Below, in pieces: positions 9,283-9,779 of a stretch of DNA of 10,930 nt. Within the stretch, counting starts at the first letter, position 1. Every line of letters begins with the position of its first letter. Source of the DNA: a virus (taxonomy: Duplodnaviria; Heunggongvirae; Uroviricota; Caudoviricetes); the IMG/VR virus record IMGVR_UViG_2531839666_000021, positions 1 to 10,930 of that record; one strand, written 5' to 3'. The notes under the pieces were generated by a model. The model was not told the origin of the DNA. It searched no databases and saw nothing but the letters and a program-made list of their open reading frames with translations. The position numbers and the translations under genes are program-made.

Positions 9283-9708
9283 ATGGCAGAAACTCAGATG
9301 AGCATGTTTGGTGGTGACAGTGAGCAACTGCACGCCCTTATCGACCGCCTTGATGACATCCCTGATGATGTTCTCAAAAAGAACTGGCCGCGGACCCTGT
9401 CAGAACTGGTTGAAGTCACCGGCGCAGAACTTCAGCGTCAGGGGATTGAGCCGGTACTGGCCGGTAAACTGGCACGCAAGGTGGCTGCGGCTCAGGCCGC
9501 CTATATGGGCGGACGGGGTTATTACCTGCCGGTCGGGGAATCTCTCTTTGCCGAGCTGCGAAACAATGAGATATTTTCGCGCTGGGACCAGGGCGAGAAA
9601 ATTGAATCCCTTCGCCGCCATTACCGGATGTCAGAAACCCAGATTTATACCGTCATACGCGAACAGCGCCGTCTGCATCTGGCAAGAACGCAACCGCCAC
9701 TTTTCTGA
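9283..9708 (+). CDS. Mor/C-family transcriptional activator (141 aa)
   Basis: SD GGAGG 9273-9277, ATG 9283. C-terminal GGRGYYLPVGESLFAELRNNEIFSRW...MSETQIYTVIREQRRLHLARTQPPLF fits the Mor/C pattern (GGxxxY[IL]P..., HTH, ...QP.LF) of phage Mu middle/late activators. Confidence 0.75.
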   Translation: MAETQMSMFGGDSEQLHALIDRLDDIPDDVLKKNWPRTLSELVEVTGAELQRQGIEPVLAGKLARKVAAAQAAYMGGRGYYLPVGESLFAELRNNEIFSRWDQGEKIESLRRHYRMSETQIYTVIREQRRLHLARTQPPLF

Positions 9709-9740
9709 TATTCCGCAAAGCCTGCCGCCTCTCCTTCACC

Positions 9741-9778
9741 GTTACGCTGACTCAGAGAACATCATGAGACAGCGTAAC
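9741..9778. promoter_or_regulatory. perfect 9-bp inverted repeat (GTTACGCTG ... CAGCGTAAC, 20-nt spacer) ending 1 nt before the endolysin start codon
   Basis: Left arm 9741-9749 and right arm 9770-9778 are exact reverse complements; ATG of lys is at 9780. Confidence 0.4.
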
Positions 9779-9779
9779 A

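What the first reader, a model, noticed from the sequence alone, without database searches (positions are those of the whole stretch)
9283..9779. Only one Mor/C-family activator, placed directly before the lysis genes
In Mu, Mor activates C and C activates the late promoters, including the lys promoter. Here a single Mor/C-type gene follows gemA, and only 71 bp separate it from the endolysin. Either a two-tier cascade is used in this element or a C-like gene lies elsewhere.
Basis: partly seen in the sequence, partly recalled or inferred. Interest (0 to 1): 0.4.

Follow-up and report, generated by a model that had tools for sequence, protein, structure and literature searches.

The report
Lone C-type late activator before lysis genes
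This Mu-like prophage, a copy of the well-known Sp18 element of E. coli O157, carries just one late-gene activator (a relative of Mu's C protein, not Mor) directly in front of its lysis genes; this arrangement is normal for Mu-like phages and is already annotated in public genomes.

Summary
Window 9283-9708 encodes a 141-aa Mor/C-family protein (Pfam Mor, E 2.7e-32). It follows gemA and lies 71 bp upstream of a lysozyme gene. A family profile that finds both Mor and C in Mu finds only this gene in the window. It also finds only one gene in two complete, 96-99% identical prophages (Sp18 of O157 Sakai and the LC727881 element). The protein is C-like, not Mor-like: 40% vs 31% identity, and 96.6 vs 40.6 bits against the solved structures. 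What is absent is therefore Mor and Mu's small middle-operon genes.

The 71-bp gap holds a −35-less promoter built like Mu Plys:
- upstream element at 9702-9726
- −10 TACGCT at 9743-9748
- predicted start near 9755

The same 25-nt element, at the same spacing, occurs once more in Sp18, in front of the protease/scaffold gene.

A single Mor/C gene is the norm in SuMu, BcepMu and 45 of 47 contigs of another clade. Mu's pair is the exception.

Two details may be new, and both are inferred only:
- A conserved terminator plus a −10-like hexamer separates gemA from the activator gene.
- A strong hairpin hides the lysozyme start site in read-through RNA only.

Verdict: ordinary and already annotated, so interest is low.

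The parts
8705..9214 (+). gemA (gp16 family). The last early-operon gene before the activator. In the window it is broken by 1-nt indels at 8982 and 9196.
   Evidence: Pfam GemA matches both halves. The intact 169-aa gene in Sp18 is L003 11441-11950. Indels are listed.
9219..9249 (+). Intrinsic-terminator-like hairpin AAATCCCGC-CACAAC-GCGGGATTT followed by a T-run, lying between gemA and the activator gene.
   Evidence: The terminator scan finds it (9 pairs, 5 G-C). RNA fold is −13.5 kcal/mol, z −4.7, 0 of 200 shuffles. The block is 46-48 of 52 identical between lineages whose activator CDS is 77% identical. The stem sequence is invariant in the P0094 and P0095 lineages, whereas loops and flanks differ.
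9248..9253 (+). −10-like hexamer TAAACT just after the terminator. Candidate promoter for the activator gene (inferred).
   Evidence: It aligns with TATACT (L012, L017) and TATAAT (L018) at the same place in three other lineages. The consensus promoter scan reports no two-hexamer (−35 plus −10) promoter here.
9283..9708 (+). Sole Mor/C-family gene, 141 aa. An orthologue of the Mu late activator C.
   Evidence: Pfam Mor E 2.7e-32. Identity is 40% to Mu C and 31% to Mu Mor. PDB: C (9l0x) 96.6 bits, Mor (1rr7) 40.6 bits. It is 99% identical to Sakai ECs_4961, annotated 'positive regulator of late transcription'.
9702..9726 (+). Upstream element of the predicted late promoter Plys (TTTCTGATATTCCGCAAAGCCTGCC). 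It overlaps the last two codons and the stop codon of the activator gene.
   Evidence: It is the only match in the window at up to 3 mismatches, with 0 expected. In Sp18 there are only two 25/25 matches, upstream of lys and upstream of I, and every other site scores at most 18/25. It is 24/25 conserved against the 77%-identity lineages.
9727..9742 (+). 16-nt spacer with no −35 hexamer.
   Evidence: It matches TTGACA at 0-1 of 6 positions for spacers of 16-18 nt. Only 8-10 of 16 positions are conserved between lineages.
9743..9748 (+). −10 hexamer TACGCT of the predicted Plys. The predicted start is about 9754-9756.
   Evidence: It lies 30 nt downstream of CCGCAAA. This is the same distance as TATGCT in the Sp18 I promoter, as TAGACT from CCATAA in Mu Plys, and as TATCCT from GCGTAA in L012.
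9741..9778 (+). 38-nt hairpin (9-bp outer stem GUUACGCUG/CAGCGUAAC plus an inner stem) that ends 1 nt before the lys AUG. Its left arm covers the −10 hexamer.
   Evidence: −20.2 kcal/mol, z −5.7, 0 of 200 shuffles. RNA starting at 9755 folds at only −2.9 kcal/mol. It is 36-37 of 38 conserved, and the substitutions fall in unpaired or terminal positions.
9780..10280 (+). Endolysin (phage lysozyme family). Its N-terminus (KKLIALVLAGAGTFTIA) looks like a signal-anchor-release domain.
   Evidence: PF00959 E 6.3e-37. Translation. The comparison with the Mu gp22 'SAR endolysin' annotation is by inspection only.

Best explanation
The gene at 9283-9708 is the only Mor/C-family regulator of an Sp18-type Mu-like prophage, and it is the counterpart of Mu's late activator C. 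Mu's Mor and its small middle-operon genes (E18-E20) are absent.

The protein most likely binds a lineage-specific element at 9702-9726. That element takes the place of a −35 hexamer. From there the protein recruits sigma-70 RNA polymerase to the −10 TACGCT at 9743-9748, starting the lysis/head late transcript near 9755. It does the same at a second promoter in front of the protease/scaffold gene I, outside the window.

The activator's own synthesis is gated by a conserved intrinsic terminator after gemA. The first molecules probably come from read-through of early transcripts. A conserved −10-like hexamer just after the terminator may add a dedicated promoter, possibly self-activated.

Shown here: gene identity, uniqueness, promoter anatomy and conservation. 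Inferred: DNA binding, the start site, read-through, and any autoactivation.
For: - **Family and subfamily.** Pfam Mor E 2.7e-32. The GG..Y.P.G linker residues are invariant across the window protein, Mu Mor and Mu C. Identity is 40% to C and 31% to Mor. PDB scores are C 96.6 bits and Mor 40.6 bits. The nearest family representatives are shared with Mu C, not with Mu Mor.
- **Uniqueness.** The profile finds 2 genes in Mu and 1 each in the window, Sp18 and the LC727881 element. The Sakai record and PGAP each annotate one such gene.
- **Promoter.** The 25-nt element plus 16 nt plus TAYGCT occurs exactly twice in Sp18, before lys and before I; every other site scores 18/25 or less. No −35 is present. 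The geometry matches Mu Plys. The −35-less, C-dependent architecture is described in PMC2582627.
- **Conservation.** Against lineages whose CDS is 77% identical (third codon positions 50%), the element is 24/25, the spacer 8-10/16, and the stretch from −10 to the ATG 38-39/40.
- **Co-evolution.** A lineage whose activator is 57% identical has a different shared element at its own lys and I promoters, with the same spacing.
- **Terminator.**
Against: - No transcript or binding data exist for this element. The start site and the activator-DNA contact are predictions.
- Only two promoters carry the element, whereas Mu has four late promoters. No convincing copy was found before the P or com/mom homologues.
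- The dyad symmetry of the element is weak.
- The element-like sequence upstream of the activator gene (CCCCAAATCCCGCC) scores 17/25, which is background level. It also sits 2-4 nt further from the candidate −10 than in the late promoters.
- The right part of this particular prophage copy was not available.
Confidence: 0.75

Rival explanations
1. Self-locking single-activator switch. The activator gene has its own Pm-like, −35-less promoter (−10 TAAACT, 9248-9253). The activator itself turns this promoter on, using the terminator's left arm (AAATCCCGC) as the promoter-proximal part of its binding site. Rare read-through of the terminator seeds the loop. This replaces Mu's Mor-to-Pm step.
For: - A −10-like hexamer follows the terminator in four lineages: TAAACT, TATACT, TATACT, TATAAT.
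- The stem sequence is invariant although the activators are only about 45-57% identical and the flanks cannot be aligned.
- AATCCC in the left arm lies 27-29 nt from that hexamer, against 26 nt in the late promoters of Mu, L012 and L017 (my count on the sequences).
- The layout mirrors Mu, where a terminator hairpin lies within the annotated Pm region.
- A promoter that needs a phage product would stay silent in lysogens.
Against: - The spacing is off by 1-3 nt.
- The window lineage's own late element (CCGCAAAGCC) differs from the invariant terminator arm, so the arm did not co-vary with specificity.
- In Mu, C does not activate Pm (PMC4287176).
- A U-tract and adjacent A/T-rich bases can look like a −10 by chance.
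- In L010, L011 and L013, about 460 nt are inserted between the terminator and the gene.
Confidence: 0.25
2. Plain two-tier cascade. The activator is simply the last cistron reached by early transcripts that leak through a partial terminator. There is no dedicated promoter. The terminator only lowers and delays activator production.
For: The hairpin plus U-tract is a canonical terminator. In other single-activator clades the gene is directly coupled to gemA in the early operon, so early-operon expression of a lone activator clearly works. A good Shine-Dalgarno sequence (GGAGG) is conserved before the ATG.
Against: It does not explain why the hexamer after the U-tract approaches consensus (TATAAT in L018), nor why the stem sequence, and not only its pairing, is invariant.
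Confidence: 0.35
3. A non-homologous early phage protein or a host or replication signal plays Mor's part at a promoter upstream of the activator gene. A three-step programme would then persist with a different first activator.
For: The candidate promoter lacks a −35, so it should need help. The early region encodes uncharacterised DNA-binding proteins, for example the SANT/Myb-like HTH ORF at 6664-7215. Mor/C proteins are reported to work with the replication clamp (PMC12867686).
Against: There is no direct evidence. The Myb-like ORF has a weak relative in Mu itself (gp9/E8, E 3.5e-5), so it is not specific to Mor-less phages.
Confidence: 0.12
4. A second Mor/C paralogue lies in the unseen part of this particular prophage copy.
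For: Only 10.9 kb of the element is in the window. 2 of 47 contigs of an unrelated clade carry a second hit or fragment.
Against: Complete Sp18 and the LC727881 element, 96-99% identical to the window, have none. PGAP annotates a single Mor-family gene in the Sp18-like copies whose annotation was inspected.
Confidence: 0.03

Closest known systems
Bacteriophage Mu late activator C with its promoter Plys
   Same: Same protein family and subfamily (40% identity; best PDB match 9l0x, 'Late transcription activator C'). The gene sits directly upstream of the endolysin gene. The promoter has a −10 but no −35. The conserved upstream box lies 30 nt before the −10, and TCAGAGAA is shared around the start site. 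The protein has N-terminal Q..MF and C-terminal QPPLF, resembling the clamp-binding motifs reported for MuC (PMC12867686).
   Different: The box sequence differs (CCGCAAAGCC vs CCATAATCCC). The gap is 71 bp, not 94 bp. There is no terminator between the activator gene and lys. There is no Mor and no E18-E20 genes upstream. Only two box-bearing promoters were found, against four in Mu.
Prophage Sp18 of E. coli O157:H7 Sakai (ECs_4961, 'positive regulator of late transcription')
   Same: Essentially the same element: 99.1% DNA identity over 8700-10930, a 99% identical protein, and the same gene order. Sp18 is judged intact and spontaneously inducible in PMC2669165. Sp18-like copies occur in 231 of 5426 complete E. 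coli genomes.
   Different: The window copy carries 1-nt homopolymer indels (probably assembly errors) and a different segment at 7218-7886.
Bacteriophage Mu Mor with the middle promoter Pm
   Same: Same family. In Mu, Pm lies just after the early-operon terminator. Here the activator gene also lies just after an early-operon terminator that is followed by a −10-like hexamer.
   Different: Only 31% identity, and 40.6 bits against 96.6 for C. The gene is not fused to the end of gemA as mor is. No Mor-type protein is present to act on the upstream region.
Haemophilus phage SuMu and other single-activator Mu-like phages (BcepMu, MuM16-1, KS10)
   Same: One Mor/C-family gene per genome. In SuMu it also sits directly before the endolysin gene, with a 78-bp gap.
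   Different: SuMu has a strong terminator in that gap. In BcepMu, MuM16-1 and the P0096 clade the gene is coupled to gemA (the Mor-like position), not placed behind a terminator.
Phage T4 lysozyme gene e translational control (from my own knowledge: McPheeters et al. 1986)
   Same: Predicted logic only. Transcripts from upstream fold a hairpin over the lysozyme ribosome-binding site, while the late promoter starts inside the hairpin and frees the site.
   Different: Unrelated phage, promoter type and sequences. Nothing has been tested here.

Membership tests
[quoted passage not shown] | Significant match to the family profile over the whole domain | tested here: met
   111.4 bits against a cutoff of 24.9, profile positions 2-107 of 107.
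[quoted passage not shown] | Small protein (about 100-150 aa) with an acidic N-terminal half, a basic C-terminal half, and the invariant GG..Y.P.G beta-strand linker (as described in PMC2582627) | tested here: met
   141 aa; net charge −4 for residues 1-70 and +3 for residues 71-141. G76, G77, Y81, P83 and G85 are invariant in the alignment with Mor and C.
[quoted passage not shown] | Clamp-binding motifs at the termini (N-terminal Qx[D/E][L/M]F, C-terminal QPDLF; PMC12867686) | tested here: inconclusive
   The N-terminal QMSMF and C-terminal QPPLF are close to the reported consensus but not identical to it. Binding was not tested.
[quoted passage not shown] | Binds an element centred near −43.5 of a −35-less sigma-70 promoter and activates it | not testable with these tools
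   The sequence is consistent with this: a conserved element at about −53 to −29, no −35, and a conserved −10. There is no binding or transcription assay.
C (late activator) subfamily as opposed to Mor | Closer to C than to Mor in sequence | tested here: met
   40% vs 31% identity. 96.6 vs 40.6 bits against PDB chains. The nearest representatives P0094, P0095, P0096 and P0098 are shared with Mu C.
C (late activator) subfamily as opposed to Mor | The same recognition element occurs at several late promoters (lys, I, P, mom in Mu) | tested here: inconclusive
   Met for lys and I, both 25/25 with identical spacing. No copy was found before the P or com/mom homologues.
Mu-type three-stage cascade (Mor to Pm to C to late promoters) | Two Mor/C paralogues in one genome, the first encoded at the end of the early operon | tested here: not met
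   The profile finds 2 genes in Mu and 1 each in the window, Sp18 and the LC727881 element.
Intrinsic (Rho-independent) terminator | G+C-rich hairpin followed directly by a U-tract | tested here: met
   9219-9242, 9 pairs (5 G-C), then TATTTTAAAC. −13.5 kcal/mol, z −4.7. Termination efficiency was not measured.
T4 gene e-type translational occlusion of a lysozyme start site | A stable hairpin covers the ribosome-binding site in upstream-initiated RNA, and the late start lies inside the hairpin | tested here: inconclusive
   The hairpin is present and significant (−20.2 kcal/mol, z −5.7) and ends 1 nt before the AUG. RNA starting at the predicted site folds at −2.9 kcal/mol. The start site itself is only predicted. 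Analogous pairings in L012 and Mu are not significant against shuffles.

The most novel reading that the evidence does not exclude
Sp18-type Mu-like phages may run the lytic switch with one C-type activator in a self-locking circuit. The activator gene would sit behind the early-operon terminator under a Pm-like, −35-less promoter. The terminator's invariant left arm (AAATCCCGC) would double as the activator's promoter-proximal contact. Rare read-through would seed the loop and autoactivation would lock it.

Premature endolysin synthesis from the unterminated activator transcript would be blocked by a hairpin over the lys start site, which the late promoter bypasses by starting inside it. On this view Mu's Mor would be a later duplicate that took over the seeding step.
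Probability: 0.2. Interest if true: 0.5.

Novelty: already known. Interest (0 to 1): 0.22.

Why it matters
As stated, the finding has little consequence. The gene is 99% identical to an annotated Sakai gene. The element is common in E. coli (231 of 5426 complete genomes). Having one Mor/C activator is the usual state of Mu-like phages.

It is still useful as a correction. Mu's two-activator relay is the exception, and the lone gene here is C-like, so the textbook Mu cascade should not be projected onto Mu-like prophages.

The regulatory details mapped here give concrete, cheap experiments on how a Mor-less Mu-like phage times lysis:
- lineage-specific late-promoter boxes that change together with the activator
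- a terminator-gated activator gene
- a start-site-occluding hairpin before a probable signal-anchor-release (SAR) endolysin

Tried and rejected
- **phmmer of the activator against the whole LC727881 element.** It found only itself. I replaced it with a broader family profile validated on Mu.
- **The search for related loci with family alignments A5 and A6.** Single-protein scans with P0097 and P0098 found nothing.
- **Census by tblastn 'places per record'.** It was unreliable: Mor was missed in D108 and SfMu rows. I used profile scans of fetched genomes instead.
- **Late-promoter element before the P and com/mom homologues of Sp18.** No convincing copy; all other matches are at background level (26 hits of at least 16/25 expected by shuffling).
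- **The 17/25 element-like match upstream of the activator gene.** Rejected as statistical evidence on its own, since it is at background level.
- **Contigs for P0077 and P0082.** One is error-ridden and the other duplicates a lineage already in hand, so neither added divergence.
- **Covariation in the lys hairpin.** It could not be tested, because only two sub-lineages exist and the stem never varies.
- **Rfam.** No family matched.
- **Literature.** I found no open-access statement on the number of Mor/C genes in Sp18 or FluMu. The Morgan et al. 2002 Mu genome paper is not held.
- **SANT/Myb-like ORF as a Mor substitute.** Not supported, because it has a weak Mu homologue.

Full report
**What the window is.** The window is the left 11 kb of a Mu-like prophage. 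It runs from inside transposase A, through B, the semi-essential early genes, gemA and one Mor/C gene, to a lysozyme and spanins.
- Region 8700-10930 is 99.1% identical to prophage Sp18 of E. coli O157:H7 Sakai and to Mu-like phages inserted in Stx phages.
- Sp18-like copies occur in 231 of 5426 complete E. coli genomes.
- The window differs from all of them by single-base indels in homopolymer runs. These create apparent frameshifts in A, B and gemA and are most likely assembly errors. The Mor/C gene and the lysozyme gene are intact.

**Checking the observation.** The ORF from ATG 9283 to TGA 9708 encodes 141 aa and matches Pfam Mor over the whole profile (111.4 bits, E 2.7e-32). The gene upstream is gemA. 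The gene downstream, 9780-10280, is a phage lysozyme, and the gap is exactly 71 bp.

To test 'only one', I collected 147 diverse family members and added Mu Mor and Mu C. I built a profile from these and searched every six-frame ORF of at least 30 aa.
- Mu, the positive control, returned both C (2.4e-49) and Mor (1.2e-34).
- The window, the complete 38.8-kb Sp18 and the complete 40-kb element in LC727881 returned one gene each, with nothing else better than E 0.7.
- The Sakai annotation and PGAP annotations of two 77%-identity lineages also list a single such gene.

The caveat is that the right part of this particular copy is not in the window.

**Which activator it is.** The protein is the C orthologue.
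- It is 40% identical to Mu C and 31% to Mu Mor.
- Against solved structures it scores 96.6 bits to 'Late transcription activator C' (9l0x) and 40.6 bits to Mor (1rr7).
- Its nearest family representatives are those of Mu C, not of Mu Mor.
- It has the invariant GG..Y.P.G linker and the acidic-N/basic-C charge pattern of the family (PMC2582627).
- Its terminal QMSMF and QPPLF motifs resemble the clamp-binding motifs reported for MuC (PMC12867686).

In Mu the order is gemA-mor-terminator-Pm-E18-E19-E20-C-terminator-Plys-lys. Here it is gemA-terminator-activator-lys. What is missing is Mor and the small middle-operon genes, not C.

**The promoter in the gap.** Mu's C-dependent promoters have a −10 but no −35, and C binds an element centred at −43.5 (PMC2582627).
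- In the window, TTTCTGATATTCCGCAAAGCCTGCC (9702-9726) is followed by 16 nt and then TACGCT (9743-9748).
- In Sp18 the same 25-nt pattern, allowing the degenerate positions, occurs exactly once more. It has the same 16-nt spacer and TATGCT, and lies in front of the protease/scaffold gene I. All other sites score 18/25 or less, which is background.
- In the window the pattern is unique even at 3 mismatches, with 0 expected.
- No −35 is present: 0-1 of 6 matches.
- The distance from the CC of the box to the −10 is 30 nt, as for CCATAA to TAGACT in Mu Plys. TCAGAGAA around the start site is shared with Mu.

Two lineages whose activator gene is only 77-78% identical (third codon positions 50%) show a classic promoter footprint:

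| Block | Conserved positions |
|---|---|
| Upstream element | 24/25 |
| Spacer | 8-10/16 |
| −10 to the lys ATG | 38-39/40 |

A lineage whose activator is 57% identical (P0094; loci L010-L013) has a different shared element, GATTGTTAAYGKAGCGTAATCCCMYC, at its own lys and I promoters with the same 30-nt geometry. Box and activator therefore change together, which is what direct recognition predicts. The predicted start is about 9754-9756.

**How unusual a lone activator is.** It is not unusual.
- The profile finds one gene in complete SuMu and BcepMu.
- It finds one gene in the P0094 and P0095 lineages within ±10 kb.
- It finds one gene in 45 of 47 contigs of the P0096 clade.
- Published annotations of KS10, the Pseudomonas B3/D3112 group and MuM16-1 list one (PMC2628397, PMC4378225).
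- In SuMu the single activator is likewise directly upstream of the endolysin, with a 78-bp gap.

Mu's two-activator relay is the exception.

**How the activator itself is switched on (inferred).** Between gemA and the activator gene lies a canonical terminator-like hairpin with a U-tract (9219-9249; −13.5 kcal/mol, z −4.7).
- It is conserved in the 77%-identity lineages (46-48 of 52).
- The stem sequence AAATCCCGC/GCGGGATTT is invariant in the P0094 and P0095 lineages, although loops differ and flanks cannot be aligned.
- Directly after the U-tract every lineage has a −10-like hexamer: TAAACT here, then TATACT, TATACT and TATAAT.

The activator gene thus sits where Mu's middle operon sits, and the Pm region of Mu likewise includes a terminator hairpin. 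Three readings remain open: leaky read-through only; read-through seeding an autoactivated promoter; or a non-Mor early or host factor.
- The element-like sequence over the terminator's left arm is at background score. It is displaced by 1-3 nt relative to late promoters.
- In Mu, C does not activate Pm (PMC4287176).

Autoactivation is therefore only a hypothesis. Other clades put the lone activator at the end of the early operon, coupled to gemA. Single-activator phages therefore come in at least two designs.

**The hairpin before lys (inferred).** Unlike Mu and SuMu, this lineage has no terminator between the activator gene and lys.
- Positions 9741-9778 form a −20.2 kcal/mol hairpin (z −5.7, 0 of 200 shuffles). 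It ends one base before the lys AUG, and its left arm covers the −10 hexamer.
- RNA beginning at the predicted late start folds at only −2.9 kcal/mol.
- The hairpin is 36-37 of 38 conserved, and the changes fall in unpaired or terminal positions.

This resembles the logic known for T4 gene e (from my own knowledge). Upstream-initiated transcripts cannot translate the lysozyme, whereas late transcripts can. That would make sense for an endolysin with a signal-anchor-release-like N-terminus. Similar pairings can be drawn in L012 (−10 region with the Shine-Dalgarno sequence) and in Mu (−10/start region with the start codons), but they are not significant against shuffles. No covariation test was possible.

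**Verdict.** The finding is real and its main inference is broadly right: no Mor-to-C relay exists. However, it describes an already annotated, common element and an arrangement that is typical of Mu-like phages. The terminator-gated activator gene and the occluding hairpin are modestly interesting, untested details.

Noticed in passing
window 1102, 2476, 3419-3453, 4433, 4624, 5637, 8697, 8982, 9196, 9240, 10887: Indels, nearly all 1-nt and mostly in homopolymer runs, relative to Sp18. The near-identical E. coli copies also align over 9100-9900 with 2 more bases than the window. They split transposase A, B and gemA into two ORFs each and shorten the terminator's T-run by one T. They look like assembly errors and not pseudogenisation.
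   Followed up: yes
window 7218-7886: This early-region segment has no match in Sp18 but does match the Mu-like element of LC727881. It is a mosaic replacement among otherwise near-identical prophages.
   Followed up: partly
window 6664-7215: A 183-aa early ORF with SANT/Myb-like repeats and a C-terminal HTH (weak Pfam HTH and sigma-70 region 4 hits; PGAP names it SANT/Myb-like in relatives). It is weakly similar to Mu gp9/E8 (E 3.5e-5). It is an uncharacterised early DNA-binding protein.
   Followed up: partly
L003 (Sp18) 20357-20412; L012 about 15940-15997: The ATG of the protease/scaffold gene I lies exactly 6 nt after the predicted −10 in two diverged lineages (TATGCT GCCGGA ATG and CACACT GGCGGC ATG), and no Shine-Dalgarno sequence is present. 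This predicts a leaderless I mRNA. The alignment with Mu I supports this ATG as the start.
   Followed up: partly
window 9219-9253; L012 7285-7325; L017 and L018 upstream of the activator gene: The terminator stem AAATCCCGC/GCGGGATTT after gemA is sequence-invariant across lineages whose activators are about 45-57% identical. The loops differ. The stem is always followed by a −10-like hexamer (TAAACT, TATACT or TATAAT).
   Followed up: partly
L010, L011, L013 (for example L010 7640-8100): About 460 nt of unrelated sequence, with no convincing conserved ORF, is inserted between the gemA terminator and the activator gene in some P0094-lineage contigs.
   Followed up: no
L004 (Mu) 10448-10487: In Mu itself, a 9-bp pairing can form between CUGCCAUCA (overlapping the −10 and start of Plys) and UGAUGGCGG (the lys start codons). 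Only transcripts from upstream would contain both arms. The fold is not significant against shuffles (z −0.9).
   Followed up: partly
L003 (Sp18) 39640-39706, upstream of com/mom: Clustered GATC sites (GAATCGATCGTTTTTGTCGATCGATT) lie before the com/mom homologues, reminiscent of the Dam-regulated region of Mu Pmom. No copy of the late-promoter element is present there.
   Followed up: no
L037 8462-8683 and L033 10808-11083: Two of 47 contigs of the P0096 clade carry a second Mor/C-profile hit. One is a roughly 73-aa fragment (E 8e-24) and the other is weak (E 4e-5). Both lie 0.4-1.4 kb downstream of the main gene.
   Followed up: no
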